Numbered from the stretch's first letter, positions 6,460-38,563 are shown. The stretch is DNA of 38,563 nucleotides from Candidatus Omnitrophica bacterium CG11_big_fil_rev_8_21_14_0_20_63_9 (GCA_002796105.1 PCVX01000052.1:1-38563); one strand, 5' to 3'. Notes: generated by a model not told the origin, from the letters alone. Numbers and translations are program-made.

Positions 6460-6485
6460 CCCAACAACGCAACTGAGACCATTGT

Positions 6486-6526: not shown

Positions 6527-6546
6527 GATGGTCTTAGGCGCTCCTG

Positions 6547-7676: not shown

Positions 7677-7679
7677 CCA

Positions 7680-18979: not shown

Positions 18980-19014
18980 GCACGACCGCTTCATCGCAAA
19001 CAAAGGAGGGTGTC

Positions 19015-19623: not shown

Positions 19624-19639
19624 CGCGTTCCCTCCATCC

Positions 19640-19683
19640 ATCAGCTCCCCGCGGCTGCGAAGCCCGGGGGGCTGATGTTTTTT
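19640..19683 (+). terminator. Rho-independent terminator
   Basis: The stem is ATCAGC(T)CCCCG ... CGGGG(G)GCTGAT, followed by GTTTTTTGGG (T-run 19678-19683). It lies immediately after the stop at 19623. Confidence 0.7.
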
Positions 19684-19691
19684 GGGCGTTG

Positions 19692-19700
19692 TGGTATGAT
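19692..19700 (+). promoter_or_regulatory. Extended -10-like element (TGGTATGAT) upstream of the solute-binding-protein gene
   Basis: A TGn + TATGAT element lies just after the terminator, ~40 nt upstream of ATG 19740. That start has an AGGAGG SD at 19725-19730. The -35 element is weak. Confidence 0.3.
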
Positions 19701-19739
19701 CATCATCTCGTGACCGCGAACGCCAGGAGGAGTCAGCAC

Positions 19740-20960: not shown

Positions 20961-20961
20961 G

Positions 20962-22080: not shown

Positions 22081-22140
22081 CAGTAGCTTAGGAGAGTCAT
22101 GCTACGAAGTCAAGCAACTTTAAAAAACTCTCAAGCTACC

Positions 22141-22170
22141 TTGACAAACTTCCTAAACTCCTATAAGAAT
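22141..22170 (+). promoter_or_regulatory. Candidate promoter/operator region for the ROK regulator
   Basis: TTGACA lies at 22141-22146, with TATAAG/AAGAAT 15-18 nt downstream. It is embedded in direct TCAAGC and AAACT repeats and a GTCAAG...CTTGAC inverted repeat (22108-22144). Confidence 0.3.
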
Positions 22171-22179
22171 AGGAGCACT

Positions 22180-23409: not shown

Positions 23410-23426
23410 GTCTAAGGGGGCGAGGC

Positions 23427-24475: not shown

Positions 24476-25537
24476 ATGAGTTCTCGACGCCGTTTCCGCT
24501 TTGGACAGTCCGGACGAGCGCAGCTCGTCCTGAGCACCCGCCAGCTCGCCACGCTCGTCAAAGCCGGCATGCCGCTCCTGCGCGCCCTGCGCACCGTCCA
24601 TGAGCAGTTGGACCCCGGCCCCCTGCGCGAGGTCTTCGGCCAAGTGGCGAGAGACGTCGAAGCCGGGGTGAAACTCTCCGAAGCGCTTTCCCACCATCCG
24701 CGCTGGTTTCCGGTGTTCTATGTGAACATGGTGCGCGCCGGCGAGCTCGGTGGCCTCCTGGATGAAATCCTCAAGCGGTTGGCCGAGTTGCTCGAGAAAC
24801 AGGCCCGGCTGCGCGAGCGCGTCAAGAGCGCGCTCATGTATCCGGCGTTCGTCATGATCGCCGCCGTCGGCATCCTGATCGTCCTCATGGCGTTCGTCGT
24901 GCCGACGTTCATGGGCATGTTCAGCGAGCTGGAAGCCGCGCTCCCATGGCCGACGCAAATCCTCGTCGTGGCGTGCACCGTGGTGCGCCGCTGGTGGGTG
25001 ATCGTGTTGCTGGCGCTGGCCGCGCTGGTGGTCGGCGCGCGCACTCTGGCGCAGACCCGCGGTGGCCGGCGGCTGATCGATCGGGCGATGCTGCGCGCTC
25101 CAGTGATCGGCTCGCTCACCGAGCGGCTGTTGATCGCGCGTTTCGCCCGCACCTTCGGGACGCTCATCTCCAGCGGCGTGCCGATCCTGAGCGCCCTGGA
25201 AACGGTCCGCGCGACGGTCACCAACAGCGTCATCGATGATGCGCTGCGCGACGTCGAGCACAGCCTCAAGATCGGCGAGTCGCTGACGCGGCCCATGGAG
25301 CTGTGCGGCGTGTTCCCGCCGCTGGTGACGCGCATGGTCGCGCTCGGCGAGGAAACCGGCCAGCTTGACCGCATGATGGTCCAGGTGGCGGACAGCTATG
25401 AGGAAGAAGTGGACGTGCAGCTCGCCGGGCTCAGCCAATTGCTGGAGCCGCTGCTGATCGTGTTCGTCGGCGGCGTCGTCGGATTTATTGTTATCGCGAT
25501 GTTTCTACCACTCATCTCGCTCACAAAACTTCTTTGA
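24476..25537 (+). CDS. gspF: Type II secretion / type IV pilus platform protein (GspF/PilC family), N-terminally short
   Basis: It has two T2SS-F-type repeats (TRQLATLVKAGMPLLRAL... and FARTFGTLISSGVPILSAL...), three TM segments and the C-terminus EPLLIVFVGGVVGFIVIAMFLP. Only ~20 aa precede the first repeat. Confidence 0.85.
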   Translation: MSSRRRFRFGQSGRAQLVLSTRQLATLVKAGMPLLRALRTVHEQLDPGPLREVFGQVARDVEAGVKLSEALSHHPRWFPVFYVNMVRAGELGGLLDEILKRLAELLEKQARLRERVKSALMYPAFVMIAAVGILIVLMAFVVPTFMGMFSELEAALPWPTQILVVACTVVRRWWVIVLLALAALVVGARTLAQTRGGRRLIDRAMLRAPVIGSLTERLLIARFARTFGTLISSGVPILSALETVRATVTNSVIDDALRDVEHSLKIGESLTRPMELCGVFPPLVTRMVALGEETGQLDRMMVQVADSYEEEVDVQLAGLSQLLEPLLIVFVGGVVGFIVIAMFLPLISLTKLL

Positions 25538-25920
25538 TGCATTCCAACGGTGCTCGAGCGTTTTCGTTATTGGAAGTCGTCATCGCGATGGGCATCCTCG
25601 CGGTCGGCGTCGTCGGGGCGATGCGGGTGTTTCCGATGGGGTTGCGCGCCTCGCGCCGCGCCGAGCTGCGCAGCCGCGCGGCGATCGCCGCCCAGCGCAC
25701 GATCGAGTTGCTCAAAGCGCAGTCATGCGCGAGCCTGGCGGACGGCAGCGCGACCACCGACGAAGGGCTCACGGTGGCCACGCGGATCACGGGCGTGTCG
25801 GTGCCGTTTGTCAGCGATTCGGCCCGCCTGAAAACCGCCGAGCTCCATGTGTCCTGGACGCAGGAAGGTGCCACGCGCACCCTACGGTTCGTCACGTATG
25901 TCCGTTGTCCGGCGTCGTGA
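25537..25920 (+). CDS. Minor pseudopilin (GspI-like) with a prepilin-type N-terminus
   Basis: It overlaps the upstream gene by TGATG. The N-terminus RA/FSLLEVVIAMGILAVGVVGAM has the class III signal layout with Glu at +5. The -1 residue is Ala rather than Gly. It is ~127 aa. Confidence 0.7.
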   Translation: MHSNGARAFSLLEVVIAMGILAVGVVGAMRVFPMGLRASRRAELRSRAAIAAQRTIELLKAQSCASLADGSATTDEGLTVATRITGVSVPFVSDSARLKTAELHVSWTQEGATRTLRFVTYVRCPAS

Positions 25921-26518
25921 GCGAGGTCTCACCCTTGTGGAGATTCTCGTGGCGGCAGCCATCCTGGTCATCCTCAGCACCGCAGCCTCGCTGATGTTCC
26001 GCGGCATTTCGCAGTCCTGGCGCAAGGGCCAATTGAAGGCGGAGCGCTACCAGCAAGCCCGGCTGCTCTTCGATGTCTTTGAGCGGGAGCTCTCCTCGTG
26101 CGTCGCCAACGCGCGCTACCCCTTGCTCGGCGTGCAGGCCTCCGAGCCTTCGCTGCTGCACGAGGGCGCGGCGGTGTTCGATGAGATCATGTGCGTCGCC
26201 ACGCCTCCGGGACGCACCGGTTTGGTCGAGCGCGGCTACTGGGTGGACGGGCAGGGACGGTTGATGTGCCACGACCACCAGCCTACCGACGGCGATTACA
26301 CGACCGGTGAGAGCGAGTTGTGCGGCACGGAGGTGACGGGGTTTGACGTCACCTATGTGGATGTCGCCGTCGATCCTGCGCAAACCCTGGAGCGCTGGGA
26401 CGGCCGGCCGGGCGGCGCGCAGGAAGGGCGGCTGCCCAAAATCATCCGGATCACGCTGCGCGTCGGCCGCCAGCAGCCGGAGCAGTTTGACACCGTCGTG
26501 TACGTCCCCACCAGTTAG
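25898..26518 (+). CDS. Minor pseudopilin (GspJ/PulJ-like)
   Basis: The N-terminus MSVVRRRERG/LTLVEILVAAAILVILSTAA is a prepilin-type signal. It is ~206 aa and lies between the I-like and K-like genes, as in gsp operons. Confidence 0.7.
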   Translation: MSVVRRRERGLTLVEILVAAAILVILSTAASLMFRGISQSWRKGQLKAERYQQARLLFDVFERELSSCVANARYPLLGVQASEPSLLHEGAAVFDEIMCVATPPGRTGLVERGYWVDGQGRLMCHDHQPTDGDYTTGESELCGTEVTGFDVTYVDVAVDPAQTLERWDGRPGGAQEGRLPKIIRITLRVGRQQPEQFDTVVYVPTS

Positions 26519-26519
26519 C

Positions 26520-29500
26520 ATGCCAATCCGAAATCCGCAATCCGGTGTTGCTTTACTCATTGTCGTGAGCCTCTTGACGGTGATCGGGGTCATGGGCGTG
26601 TCCTTCGCCTTCTCGATGTTCCTGGAGACGCAGGCCAGCCGGCAGTTCGTGTCCACCGCCCAGGCGCGCTACATCGCCGAAGCGGGTGTCAATGCGGCCT
26701 GGGTGCTGCTCGATGAGGACGGTGCCGGGTCTCCGGTCGACGACTTGACCGAAGATTGGGCGCGCCTGCCGCAGGGGAGCGAGGCGGATGCCGATCGCGA
26801 CGGCACCAATGAGGCGGTCTGGTGGGAGGTGGCCGGCGCTGACGGCGACACGGTCGGACGCTTCGGGCTGGCGATCGTCGATGAGACGGGCAAGATCAAC
26901 TTGAATATCGCCCAAGCCCATCCCGCCGGTGAGCAACCGGGGATCGATCTGATCACGCTCTTCGAGCAGGCCGGGATTGGGGGCGCAACTGAGGCGGCTG
27001 AAGCCATCGAGCGGTACCGGTATGGGGGGCCGCAGGGCGCACCAGGCGAAGACGGCGTGGATGACGATCATGACGGCACGATCGATGAGCCGGATGAGTA
27101 CGATCCGATGGTGCTGCGAGGCAACGACCGCCGGTTGGAGGCGCTGGAGGACGCGGTCAGCATCGCGGGCCTGAGCACCGCCGAATTTGCCCGGCTGGGC
27201 CGTTTGGCGACGGTGTATAGCTGGGACCCGAATGTCAGCATGAGCGGCCGCGCGCGCGTCAATGTCAATACGGCGACCGGCAGCGAGCTGGTGGGCGTGC
27301 TCGTCGCCGCAGGCATGGAGGATCCGTGGCAGGCGGCGGTGAACTTGGCGGATTATGTCGATCCGGATCTGGAGCTGTCCCGCACGACGCACGCTGCGCA
27401 GCGCATCTGGCTGGCCGATCAGGGGCCGCTGGGCAGCTGGTCATGGAGCGTTGAGGGCTCTGATGGTTTCTATGGCAGCGAGCAGCGTGACGGCGCGCCG
27501 CTGACCTGGACCGCGGCTGTCCCCTCCGGAACATTTACCATCCGGGCGATCGGCCTTGAGGACCGGCCGGTTGGCGATGTGACTATTGCGGGCCAGTCCG
27601 TCGCGTCCGCCACCCATTTACAGCCGCTGGGAGAGTTCACCCTGGCCGGGACGGTCGAGGTTTCCGTGGTCAACCGTGAGCCGGAAGGCCAAGCATGCGC
27701 GTTCCGGGGGCTGGAGCTCATTTCGACCGATCCGGAAGGCAGCGGGCGCATGATCCGCGGCGTTGAGGTCGTGCGGATCAATGAGCTGATGGTGGAGCCG
27801 ACGATCACGCTGGAGATCGCATCGGCCCAGTTTGAGCCGCAAGGGTCCGATTGGTTCTGCGGGGTCGGGCAGAGCGTGTGCACCAACAGCGGCGCAGGGC
27901 AGGCCAGTTGGACGTGGACCAACCCGCTCGTGCCCCCCAGCCGGTACTACGTGCGCGTGTTCGGGTCGGCGGCCGGCCAGACAGTGGGGAACGTGCGCGT
28001 GGATGGGCAGACCGAGCAATTGGTCCACGGCGAGCGGCACTCGGCGACGCTGCTCGTCGGCGACGACGGCAAAATCACCCTGCTCGTTGGCAAGACCGAA
28101 CCTGAGCAGACATACTATATGCAGGGGGCCGTGCTTTCGCTGCAGCCGGATGCGGAGTATCTGGAGTTGATCAACTTGGGTGAGACGCCGATGGACGTGA
28201 GCGGCTGGACGGTCACCGGGACCTTGACCGGGGGCCGCGACGCTCAATTCCCCCAGGGGTCCGTCATGGCGGCGCACGGGGTCCTGGTGGGTGCGGTGGA
28301 TGTCAGCGACCAGCAGGAGGGCCTGTCGGCCAACGGCATCAGCGCGCGCGGGGCGTGGGACATTCCCGCCTCAGCACCCGTGGTCCAGCTGCTCTTTCCC
28401 AGCGGCGGTCCCTCGCCGGATGATGACTGGCTGAAGGTGGCGCTGCCCAGCGGCAGCGTGGGACGGCTGGTGCTGCGCACCGATGAGGGCAGCGTGGTGG
28501 ATGAGGTCCAGTACCCGTTGCCCTTGAGCGGCTCCTCGGGGTTTCAGAGCCTTGAGAAGGGCGATCCCACGGTGGTCAGCGATGCGAACGCCGATGGGAT
28601 CGATGACGGCTGGTACCCATCGGACATCTCCTTTGAGCGGCTGGGGTTTACGCCCGCGGCCACCAACAGCAACGAGGGCCTGCGGGAATCCCAAGGCGCG
28701 TACGATCCGCCGATCGTGCACGACCCCTCGACGGACATCACGATCCGCAACCGCGCCATCACCAGCGTGGGAGAGCTGGTGGGAGTGCCCAGCGGCGTTT
28801 CATGGAAGCCGTTCGCTAGCCAAGAGCTGGCCAAAATCGTCGATCAGCTGACGGTGGACGGCCACCGGCTGGAAGCGGCCGGTGCCGGGATGGGCGAGAG
28901 CGCCTGGGAGGAGCGTGTCGACGGCTACGAATACAGCAACAGCGACTCACAGCGCAATCCGTGGGCGCCGGATCAGATCGGCACGTGGCAGTGGACCGCG
29001 ATTCCTGCCGGGACGTATCGGCTCAACCTGTACAGCCGCGAAGGGCAGCTTGGGGAGCAAATCTCCGTGCGCTGCGAGGCGCTCCAATGGTCGCAGGAGG
29101 ATGGCTCGTCAACCGATTGGTCCCCGCCGCTTTCGACCGATGCCCAGGGGCGCGTGGTGGTGGGGCAGGTGACGGTCAGCCGCGACACGACGCCGCCGGA
29201 AAGCCTGACGCTCGATGTGGCATGCCTGTCGACCAGCGGCGTGTGCCACCTGACGCGGGCGCAGCTGGATCCGCGGTTGGTTCGCGTAGGGCCGGTGAAT
29301 ATCAATACCGCGCCGCTGGAAGTGTTGCGGGCATTGCCTGGCATGACCGAACCGCTGGCCTCGCGTCTGATGGCGGGCCGTCCGTACGGGGATCAGAGCC
29401 ACCAGCAGCGCGGCATCGGCGACCTCCTGGATGGAGCGGTGTTGGGTTCCACCGAGGAAGAGAAATTAGCGGTGTTCCGTCGGCTGGCCAGCTGGGTGAC

Positions 29501-29603
29501 CACGCGCTCCCAAGTGTTTCAGATCCGCAGCATCGGCCAGGCGCTAGAAGAGCTCAAGGCCCGCGCGACGCAGCGGATCCAGACGATTATTGAGCGACAA
29601 TGA
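26520..29603 (+). CDS. Giant GspK/PilX-like minor pseudopilin (1027 aa) with an inserted lamin-tail-domain-like module and acidic Ca-binding-like motifs
   Basis: The N-terminus is GVALLIVVSLLTVIGVMGVSFA...AQARYIAEAGVNAA, as in GspK. There are two NxNTA helix-hairpin-helix-type segments: RVNVNTATGSELVGVL and VNINTAPLEVLRALPGMTEPLASRLMAGRPY. The LTD-like motifs are VRINELMVEP and EYLELINLGETPMDVSGWTV. The acidic loops are DADRDGTNE and GVDDDHDGTIDEPDEYD. Confidence 0.75.
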   Translation: MPIRNPQSGVALLIVVSLLTVIGVMGVSFAFSMFLETQASRQFVSTAQARYIAEAGVNAAWVLLDEDGAGSPVDDLTEDWARLPQGSEADADRDGTNEAVWWEVAGADGDTVGRFGLAIVDETGKINLNIAQAHPAGEQPGIDLITLFEQAGIGGATEAAEAIERYRYGGPQGAPGEDGVDDDHDGTIDEPDEYDPMVLRGNDRRLEALEDAVSIAGLSTAEFARLGRLATVYSWDPNVSMSGRARVNVNTATGSELVGVLVAAGMEDPWQAAVNLADYVDPDLELSRTTHAAQRIWLADQGPLGSWSWSVEGSDGFYGSEQRDGAPLTWTAAVPSGTFTIRAIGLEDRPVGDVTIAGQSVASATHLQPLGEFTLAGTVEVSVVNREPEGQACAFRGLELISTDPEGSGRMIRGVEVVRINELMVEPTITLEIASAQFEPQGSDWFCGVGQSVCTNSGAGQASWTWTNPLVPPSRYYVRVFGSAAGQTVGNVRVDGQTEQLVHGERHSATLLVGDDGKITLLVGKTEPEQTYYMQGAVLSLQPDAEYLELINLGETPMDVSGWTVTGTLTGGRDAQFPQGSVMAAHGVLVGAVDVSDQQEGLSANGISARGAWDIPASAPVVQLLFPSGGPSPDDDWLKVALPSGSVGRLVLRTDEGSVVDEVQYPLPLSGSSGFQSLEKGDPTVVSDANADGIDDGWYPSDISFERLGFTPAATNSNEGLRESQGAYDPPIVHDPSTDITIRNRAITSVGELVGVPSGVSWKPFASQELAKIVDQLTVDGHRLEAAGAGMGESAWEERVDGYEYSNSDSQRNPWAPDQIGTWQWTAIPAGTYRLNLYSREGQLGEQISVRCEALQWSQEDGSSTDWSPPLSTDAQGRVVVGQVTVSRDTTPPESLTLDVACLSTSGVCHLTRAQLDPRLVRVGPVNINTAPLEVLRALPGMTEPLASRLMAGRPYGDQSHQQRGIGDLLDGAVLGSTEEEKLAVFRRLASWVTTRSQVFQIRSIGQALEELKARATQRIQTIIERQ

Positions 29604-31177
29604 ATAGAGTCTGGGGCGGGGGGCGGGAGACAAGGGGCAGGGGAAAGCCGGTATGGTTTTCCAGCACCCTGGGTTTTTTTGTCTTCTCCTCAATAGTATT
29701 TGGATTCCCTCGCCCCTCGCCCCTCGCCCCTCGCCCCCTGCTTGCCGAGGCAGCGGTGAGCGAGAGCGGCGACAAGCAGGTCGAAACGGCGTCGGTCAAT
29801 TCCGGCGGAGGGGCCACAACTTCTTCCAACCTCCGCCAGCAAAGCTCGATCGGCGATTCGATGAGCACCGCGCGAGTGTCCAGCTCGCGGTTCCGGATCG
29901 CCCCGGGGTTCGTCGGCGCTTCGCTCTCCTCAGCCGGCGGCCAGCCGCTCAGCGAGCTGAATATCCAGGTCCTCTACGCGAAAACCGAGGCGCTGGGCGT
30001 TTCGATCGCGCCCCAGACATGGCAGCGCGACCGTGATCCGGTCTTTTTCTGGGAAGCTCCGCCGAGCGCGACCAGTGTGGCCGGGTACAGCTATGCGATC
30101 GACGCCGCGCCGGATGACACGGTGGACACCACCGGTACGTCGTTTGACGTCGCCACGAGCCCGCTGACGTCGCTGCCCGACGGCGTGCATCGCTTCACCG
30201 TCAAGGCCATCAACACCGCCGGCAGCGTGGGCAACCCCGCCTCGTTCGACATCTGGGTGGACACGACCGCCCCTGTGATCGCCAGCGCGACGCCAGCCGC
30301 CGGCAGCCTCCTCAACACCGCCACCCCCACGATCGCCGCGGTGATCACCGATGCCCACAGCGGCGTGAGCGCCTCGACGATCGAGCTGCTCATCGATAAC
30401 GCCGCCCTGTCGGTGCAGTTCATCCCGGCGACCGGTGCGATGAGCGCGACCGCGCCGGCGCTCATCGACGGCTCGCATGTCGTCAAGCTCCGGGCGACCG
30501 ATACGGCAGGGAACGTCCAGAACTGGCTGCTGTGGAGCCTGACGACCGATACTATCGCGCCCGCCGGCAGCGTGGTGATCAATGGCGGGGCTGAGGAAAC
30601 CACCAGCAGCTACGTGACGTTGACGCTCAGCGCCTCCGACATCAGCTCGGGGGTGGATCGTGTGCTCATCAGCAACGACCCGTCCGGCAGTTTTGTCGAG
30701 GAGCCGTATATCGTCTTGCGGGATCTGTGGCTGCTGACGCCGGTGCGCGGGCTGCGAACCGTCTATGTGAAGTTCGAGGACGAGGCGGGCAACATGTCGG
30801 CGCCGGTGAGCGATGAGATCTACCTCAACTTGCTCGCCCCCGAGACGCTCATCACCAGCGGTCCGGCCGGATTTGCTCCCAGCCAAACAGCCACATTTAC
30901 CTTCATGTGCCCTGAGGGCACGTGCCTGTTCTCGTACGCGTTCGACACACAGGCGTGGTCTTCCTGGAGCTCCAGCGCGACCGCGACCGCTTCCGGACTG
31001 ACCTATGGGAACCATTTCTTCCGCGTCAAAGCCGCGCAAGACGTCAACGGCATCCCGGGTATCCAGCCCGATGAAGAAGACCCGACGCCGGCTGAGCGGG
31101 CGTGGGTCGTCGGCGTGCAGCCGAGCCTATTGTCGGTCCCTCGGGGTCCTCCGATCAAACTGTGGCGTTTGGAGTAG
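29600..31177 (+). CDS. Secreted or anchored protein with tandem bacterial Ig-like domains
   Basis: It overlaps the upstream gene by ATGA. The N-terminal basic segment is followed by the hydrophobic FSSTLGFFVFSSIVFGF. Repeated DTTAP/DTIAP-delimited ~90-aa beta modules are present (WVDTTAPVIASATPAAGS..., TTDTIAPAGSVVINGG...VDRVLISNDP...VYVKFEDEAGN). Confidence 0.65.
   Translation: MNRVWGGGRETRGRGKPVWFSSTLGFFVFSSIVFGFPRPSPLAPRPLLAEAAVSESGDKQVETASVNSGGGATTSSNLRQQSSIGDSMSTARVSSSRFRIAPGFVGASLSSAGGQPLSELNIQVLYAKTEALGVSIAPQTWQRDRDPVFFWEAPPSATSVAGYSYAIDAAPDDTVDTTGTSFDVATSPLTSLPDGVHRFTVKAINTAGSVGNPASFDIWVDTTAPVIASATPAAGSLLNTATPTIAAVITDAHSGVSASTIELLIDNAALSVQFIPATGAMSATAPALIDGSHVVKLRATDTAGNVQNWLLWSLTTDTIAPAGSVVINGGAEETTSSYVTLTLSASDISSGVDRVLISNDPSGSFVEEPYIVLRDLWLLTPVRGLRTVYVKFEDEAGNMSAPVSDEIYLNLLAPETLITSGPAGFAPSQTATFTFMCPEGTCLFSYAFDTQAWSSWSSSATATASGLTYGNHFFRVKAAQDVNGIPGIQPDEEDPTPAERAWVVGVQPSLLSVPRGPPIKLWRLE
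29613..29734 (+). repeat. G-run tract plus (CCCTCGC)x4 heptamer array forming a long-range purine/pyrimidine complementary pair at the 5' end of the Ig-like CDS
   Basis: GGGGCGGGGGGCGGGAGACAAGGGGCAGGGG lies at 29613-29643. CCCTCGC x4 lies at 29707-29734. GGAGACAA pairs with TTGTCT(T)CTCC between them. It shares GGAGACAAGGG with the element at 7127-7186. Confidence 0.6.
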
Positions 31178-31199: not shown

Positions 31200-32669
31200 A
31201 TGCCGAGCACTCTTGGGGTCGAGTTGTCCCCTACCGCTCTCCGGGCGGTCGTGCTAGATCACGCCACCCTTGCGGCGTGGCGCCGGGCGCGCGCCGCCAA
31301 TGCCTCCGCTCCCTTGCATCTGGACGGCGCGATCGAGCTGCCGTGCGACACCGCCAATGCCGAGGCGTTGACCAGCGCCCTTTCGCAACTTCGCCGCACG
31401 CTCCGTAGCTCGGGACCGGTCATCCTCGGCCTTCCCACCACCTCCGCCATTGTCTCAACGCTGTCTCCGCTGATCCCCGCGCCCAAACGGGCCGCGCTCG
31501 CCGTGCAATTCGAGCTGCAGCAGCAACTGCCTTTTGAGTTGATGGACGCTGCCTGGCACTATCAACCGCTGGCTCGAACGAATGGGACCGCGTCCGCGCC
31601 TGTGCTGGCGGCGGCGGTGCGCCGCTCGCTGCTGGAAGAGCGGCTGCGCTGCTGCCAGCGGGCCGGTATGGCGGTCAGCGCTGTGTCGCTTGGCGCGCTG
31701 GCGGACCTCAACGTGTGGAAGTTTCTGCACGATGCGCCGTCCGCCGCGATCCTCCACGCGCTCGCGCCGCAGGCCGCGGAATGGATCGTGTGGGCCGAAG
31801 GGCGCGTTCATGTGACGCCGGTCTTCAGCGCGTCCGCGGACGCCTTCAGTCAGGAACTGGCGCTCTCTTGGGAGACGCTGCGCGCCGAGCATCCTCACGC
31901 GACGGTGCATGTCCTTGGTTCCGATGAACTTGCCGGCACGGCCCAGGACATCCTGCGGCGCGCGGAGGCTTCGGTGGAGCGGTTGATCGTGCCGGTCACC
32001 CCGGTGGCCGGCCAGCCCATCGACACGATGACCGCCTTGGGTCTTGCGCTGCAAGGGGCTGGGGCGGCTGCGGTGCCGATAAATCTCGTGGCGCTGCGTC
32101 AGGAAGAGGCGCGTGTGCAGCGCCTTCGCCGGCTGGCGCTGTGGACCAGCGGCATCTGTGGTGCGCTCACCATCGGCTTGCTGCTGGGCGGCATGCTGCA
32201 ATTGCGTCATGAGCGCGTGGTGGTGCTGCAAGCGCTCGAGGAGCGGCAGCGGCGGTATCAAGCGCTGCGCCCGGAAATCCGCTCGGCGCTGCAGGACCAG
32301 GAGCAGCTCGAAGAGCGGCTGCGGCAGCTGGACCAGCTCATCAACGAATCGGCCGGATTGACCCGGCTGCTGGCGCAAGTTGCTGAGGCGCTGCCCCAGA
32401 CGGTGTGGTTGACCAAAATCGAGTGGAGCAAGACGAGTACGCTGCCGGGTGCAGCGCGAGGCGGCCACCTGATCGAAGGTGTGCTTGAAGGCCGGGCGCG
32501 CTCCTTCCAGGATGCCACACAGTTGCTGGAGCGCCTCAAGACCGTACCCGGCATGATGGCGGTGCGTTCAATTTCGGCCACCCCGACCATCGATGCGGCC
32601 ACCGGCAAAGAGTTCATCGCGTTCGCGGTGCAGCTCCAGCAGGCGCTGCAACCCATGACGGACCGATGA
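31200..32669 (+). CDS. PilM-PilN fusion-type pilus/secretion assembly protein
   Basis: The N-terminal actin-like PilM pattern is LGVELSPTALRAVVLD ... ILGLPTTSAIVSTLSPLIPAPKRAALAVQFELQQQLPFEL. It is followed by a TM segment (LALWTSGICGALTIGLLLGGML), a coiled coil and a PilN-like C-terminal domain (VWLTKIEWSK...LEGRARSFQDATQLLERLKTVPGM). Confidence 0.7.
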   Translation: MPSTLGVELSPTALRAVVLDHATLAAWRRARAANASAPLHLDGAIELPCDTANAEALTSALSQLRRTLRSSGPVILGLPTTSAIVSTLSPLIPAPKRAALAVQFELQQQLPFELMDAAWHYQPLARTNGTASAPVLAAAVRRSLLEERLRCCQRAGMAVSAVSLGALADLNVWKFLHDAPSAAILHALAPQAAEWIVWAEGRVHVTPVFSASADAFSQELALSWETLRAEHPHATVHVLGSDELAGTAQDILRRAEASVERLIVPVTPVAGQPIDTMTALGLALQGAGAAAVPINLVALRQEEARVQRLRRLALWTSGICGALTIGLLLGGMLQLRHERVVVLQALEERQRRYQALRPEIRSALQDQEQLEERLRQLDQLINESAGLTRLLAQVAEALPQTVWLTKIEWSKTSTLPGAARGGHLIEGVLEGRARSFQDATQLLERLKTVPGMMAVRSISATPTIDAATGKEFIAFAVQLQQALQPMTDR

Positions 32670-33496
32670 GCGCTTCGCCTCGTTCGCCGACGTGGGTGCC
32701 TGTGGCCGGCGTGGCGGCCGGCGCGCTACTCGCCGCCGCCGGATTGTGGTGGATGAACGTGCGTAGCCTCGATGAACAGATCCGGCGGACGCGCGCGGAC
32801 GTGAAAAAGCTTACCGTCGGCAAGCAGCTGCCGCCCAGCGAGCAGGTCATGGCGTATCTGACGCAGCGGCGGCAGGCGCTGGAGCGACGCTACCAACAGC
32901 GGGCCGATCTCGTCGCGCTCGCCCCGTCGGCGGCGGCCAGCTCGTCAGACCCGCAATTGTTCTATCAAGAGCAATTTCACGAGTTGCAGCGGACCTTGGA
33001 GCGGCTGGCGGCGGCAAAGAGCCTGTCGACGCCCGAGCTGCTGGGCTTTCCGAAAGACGTGCCTCCTCCGGAGACGGTGCCGCGGTTCCTCGCCCAGGTG
33101 GGGCTGATCCGCGAAGCCAGCGCGTTGGTGATCGAGCAGGATCTGGGCACGGTGATCTCCGCGAAAGTCGAGGATCCGGAAACGATCCTCAATGACGAAG
33201 GGACCGCCACGTTCCTGGTGCGCGCACCGGTCCGTCTTCGCTACAGCGGCTCGCTGTCCCAGTTGATGGGGCTGCTCGGCACCTTGGGGCGTTCACGGCC
33301 GCTAGTGGACTTGCAAGCACTGCGCATTACGGCCGGGGCCGCGGTATCGGACCTCTTGGATGTCGAGCTGCGCTTGGCGCGCTACTTGGCGGTCAACACG
33401 CCGCCGCCGACCACCGTGCCGCTTTCGGAAGAGCGCCAGCCGGCCCGCACGGGCACGACCCGGCGCCGGCCCGCATCAGGGGCCCAAACGCCATGA
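32666..33496 (+). CDS. PilO/GspM-like inner-membrane assembly protein
   Basis: It overlaps the upstream gene by ATGA. It has a single TM segment (VAGVAAGALLAAAGLWW) and a coiled coil. The ferredoxin-like C-terminal pattern is FLVRAPVRLRYSGSLSQLMGLLGTLGRSRPLVDLQALRI. Confidence 0.55.
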   Translation: MSASPRSPTWVPVAGVAAGALLAAAGLWWMNVRSLDEQIRRTRADVKKLTVGKQLPPSEQVMAYLTQRRQALERRYQQRADLVALAPSAAASSSDPQLFYQEQFHELQRTLERLAAAKSLSTPELLGFPKDVPPPETVPRFLAQVGLIREASALVIEQDLGTVISAKVEDPETILNDEGTATFLVRAPVRLRYSGSLSQLMGLLGTLGRSRPLVDLQALRITAGAAVSDLLDVELRLARYLAVNTPPPTTVPLSEERQPARTGTTRRRPASGAQTP

Positions 33497-34041
33497 CGTC
33501 CAGCCATCGGTCGACCGAGTCATTGCTGGTGGTGGCGGTATTGCTGGCCTCCACTATGGTCGCGGCCTGGTGGTGGCGCGCCACCTTGGGCCAGCGCAGC
33601 CGCCTGGAATTGCCCCGAGAGCTGTGGGAGCGCGTGAAAGAGGACTATCCGCTTGACGATCAGACCTCGAGCGCCCGCTTGCTGCCGCACGAATTGGCCC
33701 AATTGGTGCTGCGCGCGAGCCCCTTTGATGCGCAGCGGCGCGCCATCACTCCTGCGGTGGCGAATTCGCTGCCTACGGAAGATGCAGGCCAGCTCGTGCC
33801 AGCCGGCCCGGCGTTTGCGTTCAAAGGGCGGATTCAAATCGGCACGCGGCAGCGGGCTGTTCTGGAAGATCGGCGCAGTCATAAGACGCATTTTCTCGAA
33901 GTCGGACAAGAGGTTGCGGGTTTCAAAGTGCTTGACATCGCGTCGGACCGGGTGCTATTATCGGACCCACAAACGAACGCGGAAATTACCGTGTCGCTTA
34001 CCGCGTCTCCAGAGGCTGGTACGAACAATCGCACACCATAG
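33493..34041 (+). CDS. PilP/GspC-like protein (TM anchor plus small beta domain)
   Basis: It overlaps the upstream gene by ATGA. The TM segment is LLVVAVLLASTMVAAWWW. The C-terminus FAFKGRIQIGTRQRAVLEDRRSHKTHFLEVGQEVAGFKVLDIASDRVLL matches the PilP/GspC-HR pattern (G....a.l.......v..Gd.v.g..v..I....v.l). Confidence 0.55.
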   Translation: MTSSHRSTESLLVVAVLLASTMVAAWWWRATLGQRSRLELPRELWERVKEDYPLDDQTSSARLLPHELAQLVLRASPFDAQRRAITPAVANSLPTEDAGQLVPAGPAFAFKGRIQIGTRQRAVLEDRRSHKTHFLEVGQEVAGFKVLDIASDRVLLSDPQTNAEITVSLTASPEAGTNNRTP

Positions 34042-34048
34042 TCAGGTG

Positions 34049-35746
34049 ATGCCATCGATGGGGTGTCCGGAAACCATCAGCCGGACGGCCAGGTCGACCG
34101 CATCACCCTTTTTATTTTTATGTGTTTGGATGCTTGGCGCAACACTCGCGGCGCCATGCAGCGTCGGCGCATCGGTCGCGGCCGATGGATTGCCGGCCAC
34201 GGCGATCCGGCCGGTGTCTTCGCGCGTCCTGCCCAGCGCTCCGCCGCCTGAGGCGCAAGCGGTCGCGGCGATTCTTCAGCGCGTCGTCGAGCTCTACCAC
34301 TCCGCTGCCGGCGCGCAGGACGCGGTGAAGCAGTCGCGCAGCGAGCAGGATGGGCTGAGAACGCAGCTTGCCGCCGTGACGAGCGAGCGGGAAGTGGTCG
34401 GCCGGCAGTTGGCGCAGCTGGAGGAGCAGCTCTCCACGCTGCAGCGGCGCCAACAGCAGCAGGTGGATGTGCTGCGCAAAGAGTTGGAAGCCCGCGTGGA
34501 AGCCGAGTTGCAGCAAACGCACCAGCAGATGGACCAAGAATTGACCCAGGCCTTCACCCGCCAAGTCAGCGCGTTTGAAACCCGCCAGCGGGATACCATT
34601 GAAAAAGCGCTGTCGCAAGACCTGCAGATGAAAGAGCGCGAACTGGAGCAGCTCGCCCGCGAAGTGAAGGTCCAGACCGATGAGCTGCTGGACCGGCTCT
34701 CCCAATTGGACACCGACCCCAACGTGACGACGGCGCTGCAGCGCTCGACGACGGACGCGCTCCAGAAGCGCAAGGCTGAACTTGAAGCGCAGCGCGTGCG
34801 GCTGGGCGCGCAGCGCGACGGCGAGCTCACGAAGCAGCGGACCGAGTTTATCGCCAGCCTGAAGCAGCAACAGCAGCTTGAGCGGCAGCAGCGCCTCACC
34901 ATCAAGGAGGCGAGCTTGCGGCAATCCATGGCCCAGCTGCTGCAGCAGTCGCGCGGCAGCGCTGAGCAAGAGTGGAGCACCGCGCAGGCCTCGCTCGAAG
35001 GGGTGCGCGTACGCGCCGGGCAGATCGCGCAGCAGCAAACCGAATTGACGAAGCGCCTAGAAACGTTCGAGCGGAATGCGACCGCGCAGGCGCACCGCGT
35101 GGACAGCCTGGAAGCCGAGCGCCAAGTCGCCATGGCGCAACTTGAAGAGACGCTGCAGCGCAGCGATTCTGAGCACGGCGATGCGGCGCTGCAATGGTTC
35201 GGCGAGGCGATCCAGCAGTTGCCGCCGGAGATCGCCGGCGACCTCAGCCACCTCCAACAGCGCATGGCGTCCTGGGCGCAGCAAGAACGGGCGCTTCGCC
35301 AGCAGCGCGACGTGCTGCGCCAGCGCCAGCTCGCGCTGCAGATCGCCCACGAAATGGAAGCTCGGTACCGCCAAGCCCAATTGAAGCAACAGCGCGAGGT
35401 CGAGGCCAAAGCGCGCCGCGTAGAAGAGCTGCTGGACCGGGCGACCCAACTGACAGGACGCGGCAAGTTCGACGATGCGCTGCAGTTGATTGGAGAAGCC
35501 CAAGCGCTGAGTCCGGCGGACGGGCAGCGCGTGGCGATGTTGCGGGACGACGTGCTGGCGGCTAAGGGCCAACAGGCGCGTGAAGCGCAGATGGCGCAGC
35601 TCCAGCAAACGTTCTCGAAAGCCATGAAAGCCTTCGAGCAAGGGCGCTACGAGGAATCCATTGCGCTCTTTGAGCAGGTGATTGCGCAAGAGTCTTCGTT
35701 GAACCAGGAAGTGCAAGTCGCTGAGGGAGATGCTCCAACTCCTTAA
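34049..35746 (+). CDS. Exported or anchored long coiled-coil protein with C-terminal TPR-like repeats
   Basis: The hydrophobic N-terminus is FLFLCVWMLGATLAAPCSVGA. About 400 aa of Q/E/R/L-rich heptad sequence follows. The C-terminus has GKFDDALQLIGEAQALSPADGQ and FEQGRYEESIALFEQVIAQES. The antisense 443-aa ORF is an artefact. Confidence 0.6.
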   Translation: MPSMGCPETISRTARSTASPFLFLCVWMLGATLAAPCSVGASVAADGLPATAIRPVSSRVLPSAPPPEAQAVAAILQRVVELYHSAAGAQDAVKQSRSEQDGLRTQLAAVTSEREVVGRQLAQLEEQLSTLQRRQQQQVDVLRKELEARVEAELQQTHQQMDQELTQAFTRQVSAFETRQRDTIEKALSQDLQMKERELEQLAREVKVQTDELLDRLSQLDTDPNVTTALQRSTTDALQKRKAELEAQRVRLGAQRDGELTKQRTEFIASLKQQQQLERQQRLTIKEASLRQSMAQLLQQSRGSAEQEWSTAQASLEGVRVRAGQIAQQQTELTKRLETFERNATAQAHRVDSLEAERQVAMAQLEETLQRSDSEHGDAALQWFGEAIQQLPPEIAGDLSHLQQRMASWAQQERALRQQRDVLRQRQLALQIAHEMEARYRQAQLKQQREVEAKARRVEELLDRATQLTGRGKFDDALQLIGEAQALSPADGQRVAMLRDDVLAAKGQQAREAQMAQLQQTFSKAMKAFEQGRYEESIALFEQVIAQESSLNQEVQVAEGDAPTP

Positions 35747-35747
35747 G

Positions 35748-37988: not shown

Positions 37989-38563
37989 TGAGCCGTTTGT
38001 CCCGCCGCCCCCAGGCGGCCGTGGCGCTGGGCGCGCTACTCGTCCTCCTGGGCGCCTCCAGCGGCGCGGCGCAACCGACGCTCCCCTTCGCGCAGCGCCT
38101 CAAAACCCCGGTCACCGCAAACTTCCAGGACGTGGATTTTGCAGCCGCCATGGAATTTCTTTCCCAGCAAGCGGGCATCAACATCATCCTGTCCGAACAG
38201 GCTCGCCAGCTTGGCCGGGCGGTGAGCGTGCATCTGGTGGAGATGCCGATGCATCGGGCGCTGGAGTACTTGCTTGGCGGGCAGGGGCTGCAGTTCCGTT
38301 TTGATGAGGAGGCCATCTGGGTCGCCACGCGCGACGAAATGGAAGCGGAACCAATGGAAACCCGCGTCTTTCCGCTCAGCAGCGGTCCGGGGTTGTTCGC
38401 AGCGTTCGAGCCGCTGCCGGCTACGCGCGAAAGCGTGGCGCTGCAAGGCGTGAACATCAAGGAGATGCGCACGATCAAGGACCTTCTCGCGGAAGTCATC
38501 CCCGAGGTCGGCGAAAGCTCGATCCTGCTCGATGAGCGCAGCGGATCCCTCGTCGTCACGCAC
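37988..38563 (+). CDS. Second secretin-family protein (N-terminal part; 3' end beyond the window)
   Basis: It is not in the ORF track because there is no stop in the window. My manual translation from ATG 37988 (TGATG overlap) gives MSRLSRRPQAAVALGALLVLLGASSGAA/QP, then VTANFQDVDFAAAMEFLSQQAGINIIL...EEAIWVAT...EPMETRVFPL...LLDERSGSLVVT. This is collinear with the N0/N1 region of the upstream secretin (EPMETRVFFL...VIDERSGALVVT). Confidence 0.75.
   Translation, partial: MSRLSRRPQAAVALGALLVLLGASSGAAQPTLPFAQRLKTPVTANFQDVDFAAAMEFLSQQAGINIILSEQARQLGRAVSVHLVEMPMHRALEYLLGGQGLQFRFDEEAIWVATRDEMEAEPMETRVFPLSSGPGLFAAFEPLPATRESVALQGVNIKEMRTIKDLLAEVIPEVGESSILLDERSGSLVVTH

What the first reader, a model, noticed from the sequence alone, without database searches (positions are those of the whole stretch)
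26520..29603. Giant GspK-like tip pseudopilin carrying a split lamin-tail-domain-like module and acidic Ca-binding-like loops
Seen in the sequence: GspK hallmarks are present at both ends. The hydrophobic N-terminus includes ARYIAEAGVNAA. There are two NxNTA helix-hairpin-helix-type segments, at ~27250-27360 and ~29293-29390. At 1027 aa, the protein is about three times the usual GspK size.

The extra sequence contains VRINELMVEP (~27768) and EYLELINLGETPMDVSGWTV (~28155-28215). These match the two signature strands of lamin tail domains (v.INE...; E(f/y).EL.N....vdlsGW). Here they are separated by ~130 residues instead of ~10-15. DADRDGTNE and GVDDDHDGTIDEPDEYD resemble DxDxDG calcium loops.

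From established knowledge, GspK caps the pseudopilus tip, and LTDs occur in extracellular nucleases and surface proteins.

Inference: the filament tip displays a large adhesin or ligand-binding module for DNA, polysaccharide or cell surface. This would make the machine more pilus-like than secretion-piston-like.
Basis: partly seen in the sequence, partly recalled or inferred. Interest (0 to 1): 0.65.

Follow-up and report, generated by a model that had tools for sequence, protein, structure and literature searches.

The report
Giant GspK tip pilin, Omnitrophota
This gene encodes the cap subunit of a secretion or pilus filament from an uncultured Omnitrophota bacterium, and a well-folded head of about 635 residues (three sugar-binding-like modules and a lamin-tail domain) is built into it, probably a ligand-binding tip, in a domain combination we found in no paper.

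Summary

**GspK identity**
- Pfam T2SSK passes its threshold.
- Foldseek matches GspK/XcpX crystal structures at probability 1.0.
- The gene follows GspF and GspI- and GspJ-like genes and precedes GspL/M/C-like genes and two secretins.

**The extra sequence**
- The roughly 635 extra residues are confidently folded (AF2 pLDDT 88, pTM 0.84).
- They lie between the two SAM-like (helix-hairpin-helix) halves of the GspK alpha-domain.
- They also contain one lamin-tail domain that matches the lamin B1 tail (probability 1.0).

**Split LTD**
- The split is supported indirectly. Removing module R2 in silico raises the Pfam LTD score from 30.6 to 40.4 bits, above the 34.3 threshold.
- In 138 relatives the two motif blocks are always 86-352 aa apart.
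- I could not read model coordinates, so strand pairing is unverified.

- Two of the acidic loops belong to the GspK core, which is known to bind calcium.
- The "pilus rather than piston" claim is untested.

**Distribution and verdict**
- The family spans Omnitrophota (66 species genomes).
- It is a new variant of the known modular-pilin theme. Its function is inferred, most likely glycan or surface binding at the filament tip.

The parts
26520..29603 (+). Giant GspK-type minor pseudopilin gene (1027 aa)
   Evidence: Pfam T2SSK, LTD and HHH_3 hit it. NCBIfam T2SS_GspK scores 74.6 bits. About 90 full-length homologues exist. The AF2 model has pLDDT 87.9 and pTM 0.84.
26520..26729 (+). Prepilin-type N-terminus and long alpha1 helix (aa 1-70). 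The putative cleavage site is after G9 (QSG|VALLI), and there is no Glu at +5.
   Evidence: The sequence is. DSSP gives a helix at aa 7-70. NCBIfam GspK aligns from profile position 1. Absence of Glu5 is the mark of the apical K subunit (PMC13533445).
26772..27374 (+). First half of the GspK globular part. It holds pilin beta strands, acidic loop 1 (aa 90-98), acidic EF-hand-like loop 2 (aa 179-195) and the first SAM-like/HhH unit (VNVNTA at aa 247, helices 254-280).
   Evidence: NCBIfam GspK aligns aa 7-257 to profile positions 1-223 of 307. The family profile aligns this region to XcpX residues 49-165. PF21687 (T2SSK first SAM-like domain) is precomputed in several homologues. D181, D182, G186, D189, E193 and Y194 are nearly invariant.
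27381..27725 (+). R1, the first CBM6/35-like beta jelly-roll module (aa 288-402)
   Evidence: hhalign gives R1-R2 probability 97.8% (E = 7e-13) and R1-R3 probability 91.5%. The region is all beta with pLDDT above 90. It has no Pfam family.
27759..27800 (+). Detached LTD first strand (G.E..RINE.M..P, aa 414-427)
   Evidence: G414, E416, E422 and P427 are invariant, and R419, N421 and M424 are nearly invariant, in 38 sequences down to 27% identity. Joining this strand to aa 543-705 raises the Pfam LTD score from 30.6 to 40.4 bits and moves the profile start from 23 to 8, while six control strands score 31.7-35.1 bits. It stays a confident strand in the sub-model that lacks R1.
27801..28142 (+). 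R2, the CBM6/35-like module nested inside the LTD (aa 428-541)
   Evidence: Foldseek of sub-model 405-712 hits CBM6 2cdp, CBM35 2vzp and 2w1w, CBM16 2zew and porphyran CBM 8xmz, with probability 0.95-1.0 and TMt 0.36-0.50.
28146..28655 (+). LTD body (aa 543-712). It includes the EYLELINLG..DVSGW strand, a DxNxDG-type acidic loop (aa 686-698) and the terminal TP motif.
   Evidence: Pfam LTD covers aa 543-665 at profile positions 22-107. Foldseek hits lamin B1 tail 3jt0_A with probability 1.0 and TMt 0.59, and 3umn_A with TMt 0.50.
28656..28916 (+). Mixed alpha/beta linker (aa 713-799) with an HhH-like stretch (SVGELVGVPSG...ELAKIVDQLTV)
   Evidence: There is no family hit. The HhH-like reading is from the sequence only and is unverified.
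28917..29270 (+). R3, the third and more diverged CBM-like module (aa 800-917)
   Evidence: hhalign gives R1-R3 probability 91.5% and R2-R3 probability 93.3%. The region is all beta in the model.
29280..29594 (+). Second SAM-like/HhH unit of the GspK alpha-domain (VNINTA at aa 926) and the C-terminal beta hairpin that completes the pilin sheet in cis (aa 999-1025)
   Evidence: Pfam T2SSK covers aa 926-955 at 29.2-30.2 bits, above the cut-off of 24.2. PDB sequence hits are XcpX 5vtm_X and ComEA HhH units. DSSP gives strands at aa 999-1010 and 1013-1025.
24476..25537 (+). GspF/PilC-type platform protein
   Evidence: Pfam T2SSF, two copies, E = 9e-69.
25534..25920 (+). GspI/PilV-like minor pseudopilin (Glu5 prepilin)
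   Evidence: Pfam N_methyl. NCBIfam gives weak PilV, XpsI and GspI hits. The motif scan is.
25898..26518 (+). GspJ-like minor pseudopilin (Glu5 prepilin)
   Evidence: Pfam N_methyl. NCBIfam gives a weak gspJ hit. Orthologues carry PF11612 T2SSJ.
29600..31177 (+). Big_13/OmpL47-like Ig-domain protein. Its start overlaps the stop codon of the K gene, and it always follows K.
   Evidence: Pfam Big_13, E = 9e-11. NCBIfam hit to OmpL47-type barrel. Synteny is conserved in L001, L070 and L071.
31200..34041 (+). Assembly-platform genes: a PilM-PilN fusion (GspL-like, Amuc_1101 family), a GspM-like gene (32666-33496) and a GspC-like gene (33493-34041)
   Evidence: Pfam PilN and PilM_2. NCBIfam Amuc_1101_fam and GspC models, weak. 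The orthologue in L001 carries T2SSM_b.
35730..38563 (+). Two tandem secretin genes. The second runs off the end of the window.
   Evidence: Pfam Secretin, E = 5e-41. Translation of 37985-38563 shows an STN-like N-terminus. The same tandem occurs in L001 and L070.

Best explanation
The gene encodes the apical (GspK-type) minor pilin of a T2SS-type type IV filament machine in an Omnitrophota bacterium.

The pilin part is conventional:
- It has a prepilin-like N-terminus without Glu5.
- It has a pilin sheet completed in cis by its own C-terminal hairpin.
- It has an alpha-domain made of two SAM-like/HhH units with acidic, probably Ca2+-binding, loops.

The unusual feature is a rigid, all-beta head of about 635 residues inserted between the two SAM-like units. 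In order, the head contains:
1. CBM6/35-like module R1.
2. A lamin-tail (Ig-like) domain whose first strand is separated from the rest by a nested second CBM-like module, R2.
3. A short alpha/beta linker.
4. A third CBM-like module, R3.

GspK sits at the very tip of the filament on top of GspI/GspJ (established for GspIJK and XcpVWX). The head is therefore displayed at the distal end of the filament.

The most likely job, which is inferred and not shown, is to bind a ligand at the filament tip. The best guess for the ligand is a glycan on a polymer or on another cell's surface, so the filament would act as an adhesive or capturing device.

Shown here: the identity, the domain anatomy, the foldedness and the conservation. 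Inferred: tip display (by homology), ligand binding and ligand class.
For: **GspK identity**
- Pfam T2SSK is above its cut-off, and NCBIfam GspK has E = 1e-20 over profile positions 1-223.
- Foldseek matches 9a1f_T, 3ci0_K, 5vtm_X and 6utu_C at probability 1.0 and TMt 0.40-0.43.
- There is no Glu5, and the model has an in-cis C-terminal hairpin.
- I-like and J-like prepilin genes lie immediately upstream, with translational coupling.

**Folded head**
- The full model has pLDDT 87.9 and pTM 0.84. The sub-model has pLDDT 90 and pTM 0.87.

**Three homologous modules**
- hhalign probabilities are 91-98%, and the modules show CBM6/35/16-like folds.

**LTD**
- Pfam LTD hits, and the lamin B1 tail matches at probability 1.0 and TMt 0.59.

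**Nested split**
- The in-silico splice gains 9.8 bits, against 1.1-4.5 bits for control strands.
- The RINE strand remains a confident strand when R1 is absent.
- The RINE and EYxELxN blocks are conserved anchors 86-352 aa apart in all 138 relatives that have both.

**Conservation**
- About 90 close homologues exist.
- 66 species genomes, almost all Omnitrophota, carry it at 24-57% identity over the full length.
- 171 clusters at 50% identity score E < 1e-30.
- All seven tested giant relatives (1054-1808 aa) also carry an LTD.
- The cassette order F-I-J-K-Big_13-PilMN-M-C-secretin is kept down to 30% identity.

**Precedent for ligand-binding modules on tip pilins**
- PilB-vWA, PilC-lectin, ComZ and CofB (PMC8179133), and CpaL (PMC13533445).
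Against: - No ligand was tested. The CBM likeness is at fold level only (TMt about 0.5, Foldseek E about 1e-3), there is no sequence family, and the binding residues were not examined.
- The LTD has no defined ligand in bacteria.
- The linkage to sugar-uptake and glycosidase genes seen in the window and in L001 is not kept in the 30%-identity clade, where L071 is flanked by RND efflux genes. It is therefore weak evidence for a glycan role.
- The window has no major pilin and no ATPase, so it is unknown whether a long surface fibre or a short periplasmic endopilus is made.
- A head of about 70 kDa may be too bulky to pass a standard secretin. This is my estimate and was not computed.
- The pairing of the RINE strand with the LTD sandwich was not read from coordinates.
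Confidence: 0.55

Rival explanations
1. The head is a periplasmic piston head or cargo dock. The filament stays a short T2SS endopilus, and the CBM-like and LTD modules recognise secreted cargo in the periplasm, such as glycosidases or large glycosylated surface proteins. They then push the cargo through the secretin.
For: - The cassette is T2SS-like in content: GspF, I, J, K, an L-like PilMN fusion, M-like, C-like and secretins.
- GspK-type subunits with a cis C-terminal strand are typical of T2SS (PMC13533445).
- Neighbouring genes encode secreted carbohydrate-active or CBM proteins.
- In L070 a protein of more than 2475 aa carrying an LTD lies next to the cassette.
- A bulky head may not pass the secretin (inference).
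Against: - No cargo was identified.
- The flanking genes vary between clades.
- T2SS substrate recognition by GspK has no established precedent.
- The exhaustive search shows that head size varies widely, with relatives of 900-1800 aa. That variation fits a diversifying external ligand better than a fixed internal partner.
Confidence: 0.22
2. The head is a DNA receptor of a competence-type pilus. The LTD and the ComEA-like HhH motifs bind extracellular DNA at the filament tip, as proposed for ComZ in Thermus.
For: - The best PDB sequence hits of the HhH unit are ComEA-related proteins and EEPD1.
- LTDs co-occur with extracellular nucleases (established knowledge from the Pfam description, not tested here).
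- ComZ is a precedent for a pilin with a large inserted DNA-binding domain (PMC8179133).
Against: - The HhH units are the ordinary SAM-like units of every GspK and also match XcpX. They are not specific evidence for DNA binding.
- The protein is strongly acidic: D+E make up 13.7% against 6.6% for K+R, which is unfavourable for DNA binding.
- No comEA, comEC or dprA genes occur in the window or in the related cassettes.
Confidence: 0.06
3. The head is a structural or gating element. It has no external ligand. It acts as a plug or spacer in the vestibule of the secretin (two secretins are present), or it simply stabilises and nucleates the tip complex.
For: - Two tandem secretins, one with a TPR extension, are conserved next to the cassette.
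- The domains pack rigidly (pTM 0.84).
- In CpaL the middle region is dispensable for tip-complex formation (PMC13533445), which shows that large middles need not serve assembly.
Against: - CBM-like and Ig-like modules are typical binding modules.
- The nested region varies in length from 86 to 352 aa across relatives, whereas a plug that must fit a conserved channel would be expected to keep its size.
Confidence: 0.1

Closest known systems
GspK / XcpX, tip minor pseudopilin of the type II secretion system (PDB 3CI0, 5VTM, 6UTU; Pfam PF03934 and PF21687)
   Same: - The N-terminal pilin helix lacks Glu5.
- The pilin sheet is interrupted by an alpha-domain made of two SAM-like/HhH units.
- Acidic loops sit where GspK/XcpX bind Ca2+.
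- The C-terminal strand is supplied in cis.
- The gene sits directly after the I-like and J-like genes in a T2SS-type cassette.
   Different: - It is about 3.3 times larger.
- A 635-aa all-beta head (three CBM-like modules and an LTD) is inserted between the two SAM-like units.
- It scores below the NCBIfam equivalog cut-off (74.6 against 130 bits).
- It belongs to Omnitrophota, not Proteobacteria.
Modular type IV pilins (S. sanguinis PilB-vWA and PilC-lectin; ETEC CofB; PMC8179133)
   Same: A pilin module carries a bulky functional or binding module that is presumed to be exposed at the tip. Carbohydrate-binding modules are among the commonest grafts.
   Different: [quoted passage not shown] Here it is nested inside the alpha-domain of a GspK-type pilin, and one of its own domains is itself interrupted. 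I found no paper that pairs an LTD with a pilin or GspK.
ComZ (Thermus thermophilus) and CpaL (Caulobacter Tad pilus)
   Same: Both are large tip-associated pilin-like proteins in which a big domain lies between the N-terminal pilin part and the C-terminal beta strand that completes the pilin sheet (PMC8179133, PMC13533445).
   Different: ComZ carries a beta-solenoid and CpaL a different adhesin middle. Neither has a GspK alpha-domain, an LTD or CBM-like repeats.
Lamin tail domain (Pfam PF00932; lamin B1 tail 3JT0/3UMN)
   Same: It shares the Ig-like sandwich fold, the INE and E(f/y)xELxN...SGW signatures, and the terminal TP motif.
   Different: The first strand is separated from the second by a whole nested domain (86-352 aa across relatives) instead of about 10-20 residues. 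An acidic DxNxDG-type loop is inserted near the C-terminus.
CBM6/CBM35/CBM16 carbohydrate-binding modules (2CDP, 2VZP, 2W1W, 2ZEW)
   Same: It shares the beta jelly-roll fold of about 115-130 residues (Foldseek probability 0.95-1.0).
   Different: There is no sequence-level membership in any Pfam CBM family. Binding-site residues were not checked, and sugar binding is unproven.
Akkermansia Amuc_1098-1102 pilus-like cluster and the Verru_Chthon cassette (TIGR02598-02600)
   Same: The PilM-N fusion hits the Amuc_1101 family, and an orthologous cassette carries an Amuc_1100-family gene. The I-, J- and K-like genes give weak hits to Verru_Chthon cassette proteins B, C and A, and protein A is also a giant of about 1300 aa.
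   Different: All scores are far below the cut-offs (for example 31.5 against 332 bits for protein A) and only the N-terminal helix aligns. This is a lead, not a membership.

Membership tests
T2SS minor pseudopilin GspK | Prepilin-type hydrophobic N-terminus that lacks Glu at +5 | tested here: met
   The N-terminus reads MPIRNPQSG|VALLIVVSLL..., with Ile at +5. DSSP gives a helix at aa 7-70. The two neighbouring prepilins do have Glu5.
T2SS minor pseudopilin GspK | Alpha-domain with two SAM-like/HhH units inserted in the pilin sheet | tested here: met
   Pfam T2SSK scores 29.2 bits against a cut-off of 24.2 at aa 926-955. PF21687 is present in homologues. Foldseek matches 3ci0_K, 5vtm_X and 9a1f_T at probability 1.0.
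T2SS minor pseudopilin GspK | C-terminal beta strand completing the pilin sheet in cis | tested here: met
   The model has strands at aa 999-1010 and 1013-1025 with pLDDT above 90. The feature is described in PMC13533445.
T2SS minor pseudopilin GspK | Encoded next to gspI and gspJ in a T2SS-type cluster | tested here: met
   The order is GspF, I-like, J-like, K, then L/M/C-like genes and secretins. The synteny is conserved.
T2SS minor pseudopilin GspK | Scores above the NCBIfam equivalog cut-off (NF037980) | tested here: not met
   The score is 74.6 bits against a cut-off of 130, and the alignment is split by the insert.
T2SS minor pseudopilin GspK | Canonical Ca2+-binding sites in the globular part | tested here: inconclusive
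   A conserved EF-hand-like loop (aa 181-192) aligns with the acidic XcpX segment. The Ca sites of GspK/XcpX are documented in PMC6211770. No coordinates or metal data were available.
T2SS minor pseudopilin GspK | Forms the GspI-J-K ternary tip complex | not testable with these tools
   No multimer prediction tool was available.
Lamin tail domain (PF00932) | Pfam gathering score on the native sequence | tested here: not met
   The score is 27.2 bits against a cut-off of 34.3, covering profile positions 22-107 only.
Lamin tail domain (PF00932) | Pfam gathering score once the nested module is removed in silico | tested here: met
   The score is 40.4 bits over profile positions 8-107. The LTD body alone scores 30.6 bits, and six control strands score 31.7-35.1 bits.
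Lamin tail domain (PF00932) | Ig-like sandwich fold of the lamin tail | tested here: met
   3jt0_A matches at probability 1.0 and TMt 0.59, and 3umn_A at TMt 0.50.
Lamin tail domain (PF00932) | First (INE) strand pairs into the same sandwich as the EYxEL strand | tested here: inconclusive
   The support is indirect only. hhalign to a canonical LTD (P0248) crossed the splice junction but did not reach the INE residues.
CBM6/CBM35-type carbohydrate-binding module | Beta jelly-roll fold | tested here: met
   2cdp, 2vzp, 2w1w and 8xmz match at probability 0.97-1.0 and TMt 0.39-0.53.
CBM6/CBM35-type carbohydrate-binding module | Sequence membership in a CBM family | tested here: not met
   R1, R2 and R3 have no Pfam hit even at E <= 10. 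Profile searches found no PDB sequence hit.
CBM6/CBM35-type carbohydrate-binding module | Conserved sugar-binding or Ca2+ residues, and sugar binding itself | not tested
   This needs a structural superposition or a binding assay.
Verru_Chthon cassette protein A (TIGR02600) | Score above the family cut-off | tested here: not met
   The score is 31.5 bits against 332.3, and only aa 9-60 align.

The most novel reading that the evidence does not exclude
Across Omnitrophota, a phylum of ultra-small and probably host-dependent or predatory bacteria, a T2SS-derived machine may have been turned into an adhesive grappling filament. Its GspK cap would carry a diversifying lectin-like head (CBM-like modules nested in and around an LTD) that recognises glycans on host or prey cell surfaces. 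The variable region nested in the LTD (86-352 aa) would set host specificity.
Probability: 0.2. Interest if true: 0.75.

Novelty: new variant of a known kind. Interest (0 to 1): 0.5.

Why it matters
Tip subunits decide what a type IV filament touches. The function of the GspK alpha-domain is still called unclear in the literature (PMC8179133, PMC13533445).

Here that alpha-domain is used as a scaffold for a large, rigid, modular beta head. The head is conserved across a whole candidate phylum and occurs in many size variants.

If the head binds ligands, three things would follow:
- GspK-type caps would be shown to act as adhesins or capture devices.
- Omnitrophota cell-cell or cell-polymer interactions would gain a concrete molecular handle.
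- It would be a clear natural example of a domain nested inside an LTD, itself nested inside an alpha-domain, itself nested inside a pilin fold.

It also corrects database labels, which call these proteins plain 'GspK' or 'lamin tail domain-containing protein'.

Tried and rejected
1. **Profile searches against PDB sequences.** The full-family profile and the spliced-LTD profile found only HhH units, or nothing. There was no sequence-level LTD or CBM structure hit.
2. **hhalign of the spliced LTD profile to a canonical LTD protein, P0248.** The alignment (probability 92%) crossed the splice junction but stopped before the INE residues. It is inconclusive for the co-folding question.
3. **Database search with the spliced profile.** It returned two family fragments and one canonical LTD protein, too few to build a canonical LTD profile.
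4. **Pfam at E <= 10 on each module.** R1, R2, R3 and the linker have no family.
5. **Foldseek against viral structures.** It gave only generic strings of beta sandwiches (TM <= 0.12, apart from one 0.22 hit to a short target), which is uninformative.
6. **Literature searches.** Searches for GspK plus lamin tail, LTD plus pilin, Verru_Chthon cassette, and Omnitrophota pili found no description of this architecture.
7. **Covariation analysis of the RINE strand.** I considered it and dropped it. The strand is nearly invariant and only about 140 sequences are available.
8. **Misassembly or gene fusion artefact.** Rejected, because about 90 independent full-length homologues have the same length and order.
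9. **Sugar-gene linkage as functional evidence.** Down-weighted, because it is absent in the 30%-identity clade.

Full report
**Observation**

The ORF from ATG 26520 to the stop at 29603 (+) encodes 1027 aa. It starts one base after the stop codon of the upstream J-like gene. The minus-strand ORFs that overlap it are the usual by-products of 65% G+C, and I did not search them for homologues. The + strand product has about 90 full-length homologues of 47-72% identity plus more distant ones.

**Identity as GspK**

- Pfam T2SSK scores above its gathering cut-off at aa 926-955 (29.2 against 24.2 bits; 30.2 bits on the isolated C-terminus).
- NCBIfam T2SS_GspK aligns aa 7-257 to profile positions 1-223 of 307 (E = 9.5e-21). 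The total of 74.6 bits is below the equivalog cut-off of 130.
- The AF2 model built on a 38-sequence alignment is confident (pLDDT 87.9, pTM 0.84).
- Foldseek matches the model to the XcpX/GspK chains 9a1f_T, 3ci0_K, 5vtm_X and 6utu_C at probability 1.0 and TMt 0.40-0.43.
- The N-terminus (QSG|VALLI...) has no Glu at +5, whereas the two upstream prepilins do. Lack of Glu5 marks the apical K subunit (PMC13533445).
- The last two strands (aa 999-1025) form the cis C-terminal hairpin that distinguishes GspK from PilK/PilX (PMC13533445).

**Gene context**

The gene order is:
1. GspF.
2. GspI/PilV-like.
3. GspJ-like.
4. The K gene described here.
5. A Big_13/OmpL47-like Ig protein, translationally coupled to K.
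6. A PilM-PilN fusion (GspL-like, Amuc_1101 family).
7. A GspM-like gene.
8. A GspC-like gene.
9. A coiled-coil/TPR protein.
10. Two secretins in tandem.

The order recurs in relatives at 48-55% identity (L001, L070). It also recurs at 31% identity (L071), and partly at 27% (L003, which also carries a T2SSE ATPase). The window contains no major pseudopilin, no ATPase and no prepilin peptidase.

**Anatomy of the extra 635 residues**

The insert lies exactly between the two SAM-like/HhH units of the GspK alpha-domain. The first unit follows VNVNTA at aa 247 (helices 254-280), and the second follows VNINTA at aa 926. The insert is confidently folded and almost entirely beta.

Profile-profile comparison of family sub-alignments shows three homologous modules:
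- R1 spans about aa 288-402.
- R2 spans about aa 428-541.
- R3 spans about aa 800-917.
- R1-R2 has probability 97.8% (E = 7e-13), R1-R3 has 91.5% and R2-R3 has 93.3%.

The modules have no Pfam family even at E <= 10. At fold level they resemble CBM6, CBM35, CBM16 and a porphyran-binding CBM (2cdp, 2vzp, 2w1w, 2zew, 8xmz), with probability 0.95-1.0 and TMt 0.36-0.53.

Residues 543-712 are a lamin-tail domain:
- Pfam LTD covers aa 543-665 at profile positions 22-107, with E = 5e-6.
- Foldseek matches lamin B1 tail 3jt0_A at probability 1.0 and TMt 0.59.

**Is the LTD split?**

The LTD hit lacks the first 21 profile positions, which are the 'INE' strand. The sequence G-x-E-x-x-R-I-N-E-x-M-x-x-P at aa 414-427 lies between R1 and R2. 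It is invariant or nearly so in 38 sequences down to 27% identity.

Four observations bear on the question:

1. *In-silico splice.* Joining aa 408-427 directly to aa 543-705 raises the Pfam LTD score from 30.6 bits (body alone, profile 23-107) to 40.4 bits (profile 8-107, above the 34.3 cut-off). Six control beta strands from the same protein gave 31.7-35.1 bits.
2. *Sub-model without R1.* In a separate model of aa 405-712, which lacks R1 (pLDDT 90, pTM 0.87), residues 418-424 remain a confident, hydrogen-bonded strand. The preceding strand at aa 410-413 is lost. The RINE strand therefore pairs within the R2/LTD unit, not with R1.
3. *Spacing in relatives.* Among 239 relatives from the two database searches, 138 contain both blocks. 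The distance between the blocks ranges from 86 to 352 aa and is never the canonical 10-20 aa.
4. *Giant relatives.* All seven distant giant relatives examined (1054-1808 aa) carry a Pfam LTD hit. Four of them were read by eye, and all four show the same RINE...EYxELxN arrangement.

Together this fits an LTD whose A-B loop is a hot spot for nested insertion, with R2 as the insertion here.

I could not open the model coordinates, so the actual strand partners were not read. One caveat is that in one relative (P0124) HMMER aligns the last R2 strand (IQLSQE) to the LTD strand-A positions. An hhalign to a canonical LTD protein stopped short of the INE residues. I rate the nested-split reading at about 0.75.

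**Acidic loops**

- Loops at aa 90-98 and 179-195 are in the GspK core, not in the insert.
- The second loop (D181-x-D-x-D-G-x-I-D-x-x-D) has the EF-hand/dockerin pattern and is nearly invariant.
- It aligns with the acidic DADQNPQGEQGAEDNQY segment of XcpX.
- Solved GspK has two Ca2+ sites and XcpX has three (PMC6211770). These loops are therefore an expected family trait.
- Their low pLDDT of 52-67 is typical of metal loops modelled without the ion.
- A third loop (D688-A-N-A-D-G-I-D-D-G-W) is inside the LTD and is conserved (D688 invariant; G693, D695 and W698 nearly invariant).

**Distribution**

- One scan of species-representative genomes found 66 loci, of which 65 encode full-length or near-full-length relatives. 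Nearly all are labelled Candidatus Omnitrophota or Omnitrophica. Some carry automated 'Planctomycetales' or 'Planctomycetia' labels, and a few are unclassified. Identity runs from 57% down to 24% over the full length.
- The exhaustive profile search found 171 clusters at 50% identity with E < 1e-30 and 1857 with E < 1e-10. These include proteins of 1300-1800 aa whose ends match GspK and whose middles differ.
- NCBI names the close relatives 'general secretion pathway protein GspK' or 'lamin tail domain-containing protein'.
- I found no paper describing a GspK or pilin with an LTD, nor one on this cassette in Omnitrophota.

**Mechanism**

By homology with the GspIJK and XcpVWX crystal structures, K caps the filament and its alpha-domain points away from the cell. 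The head is inserted in that alpha-domain and would be the most distal object on the filament.

Heads of this kind have precedents. Modular pilins carry vWA or lectin modules, ComZ carries a beta-solenoid and CpaL carries an adhesin middle. In those cases the module binds the filament's target (PMC8179133, PMC13533445).

The modules here are of binding-module types: a CBM-like jelly roll and an Ig-like LTD. I therefore favour a ligand-binding tip with a glycan as the most likely ligand class. Overall confidence is about 0.55 (identity about 0.9, ligand binding about 0.5-0.6, glycan about 0.4).

The rivals are:
- A periplasmic cargo dock of a true T2SS piston (0.22). The T2SS-like gene content and the head's bulk favour this.
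- A gating or structural role linked to the two secretins (0.10).
- A DNA receptor (0.06). The very acidic composition and the absence of com genes disfavour this.

The window and L001 place the cassette beside sugar-uptake, CBM9, Mann_GBD, DUF5060 and GH116 genes. L071 does not, so this linkage is only weak support.

**Comparison and novelty**

The protein works like, and passes most membership tests for, GspK. It fails the NCBIfam equivalog score and the size expectation. It is best filed as a new architectural variant of the GspK/modular-pilin theme, and it is phylum-wide in Omnitrophota. It is not a new kind of system.

Noticed in passing
window 35730-37988 and 37988-38563 (runs off the end): Two secretin genes lie in tandem. 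The first has an N-terminal TPR extension and the second starts with an STN-like domain. The same pair follows the cassette in L001 and L070. It is unknown whether they form one mixed channel or two.
   Followed up: partly
window 29600-31177: A 525-aa Big_13/OmpL47-like Ig-domain protein has a hydrophobic N-terminus. Its start codon overlaps the stop of the giant K gene (ATGA). It directly follows K in all three related loci examined that keep it (L001, L070, L071), down to 31% identity. It could be a partner of the tip complex.
   Followed up: partly
window 31200-33496; L071 16506-17261: The PilM-PilN fusion hits the NCBIfam Amuc_1101 family. In L071 the next gene hits Pfam Amuc_1100 (PF28028). 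The cassette therefore looks related to the Akkermansia Amuc_1098-1102 pilus-like cluster.
   Followed up: no
window, whole: Only two Glu5 prepilins are present (25534-25920 and 25898-26518). The 38.5 kb hold no major pseudopilin, no GspH, no GspE/PilB ATPase and no prepilin peptidase. The distant locus L003 has a T2SSE/MshEN ATPase after its secretin.
   Followed up: partly
window 34049-35746: An extra coiled-coil/TPR protein gene lies between the GspC-like gene and the first secretin. It is absent from the orthologous cassettes in L001 and L070. A second coiled-coil gene (23373-24353) precedes GspF and is conserved.
   Followed up: no
window 12110-23409: A carbohydrate-use cluster lies upstream. 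It holds a GFO/IDH/MocA oxidoreductase, a xylose-isomerase-like TIM barrel, two ABC permeases, a DUF5060 protein, a CBM9 protein, a mannanase-type galactose-binding-domain protein, a sugar-binding protein and a ROK regulator. The linkage is kept in L001 (GH116, SBP, ROK) but not in L071.
   Followed up: partly
L070 1-4785: A protein of more than 2475 aa lies just upstream of the cassette in a relative. It combines LTD, Cadherin-like, FG-GAP, He_PIG, Big_9 and Glycoamylase domains. LTDs therefore also occur on giant surface proteins of the same organisms.
   Followed up: no
window 5848-11544: This stretch holds a small secreted beta-rich protein, a 367-aa ORF and a 1017-aa protein with C-terminal SdrD_B, CarboxypepD_reg and SpaA-like Ig domains. 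The first two have no Pfam family. It may be another surface-structure locus.
   Followed up: no
window 28740-28850 (aa ~741-777 of the K protein): The stretch NRAITSVGELVGVPSG...ELAKIVDQLTV in the linker before R3 looks like a third HhH-type unit. It is conserved in the family consensus, but no family model hits it.
   Followed up: no
proteins P0133-P0222: Relatives of 1300-1800 aa keep the GspK ends and the RINE and EYxELxN anchors, but they carry much longer and different middles (nested region up to 352 aa). Their taxonomy is mostly unlabelled metagenome.
   Followed up: partly
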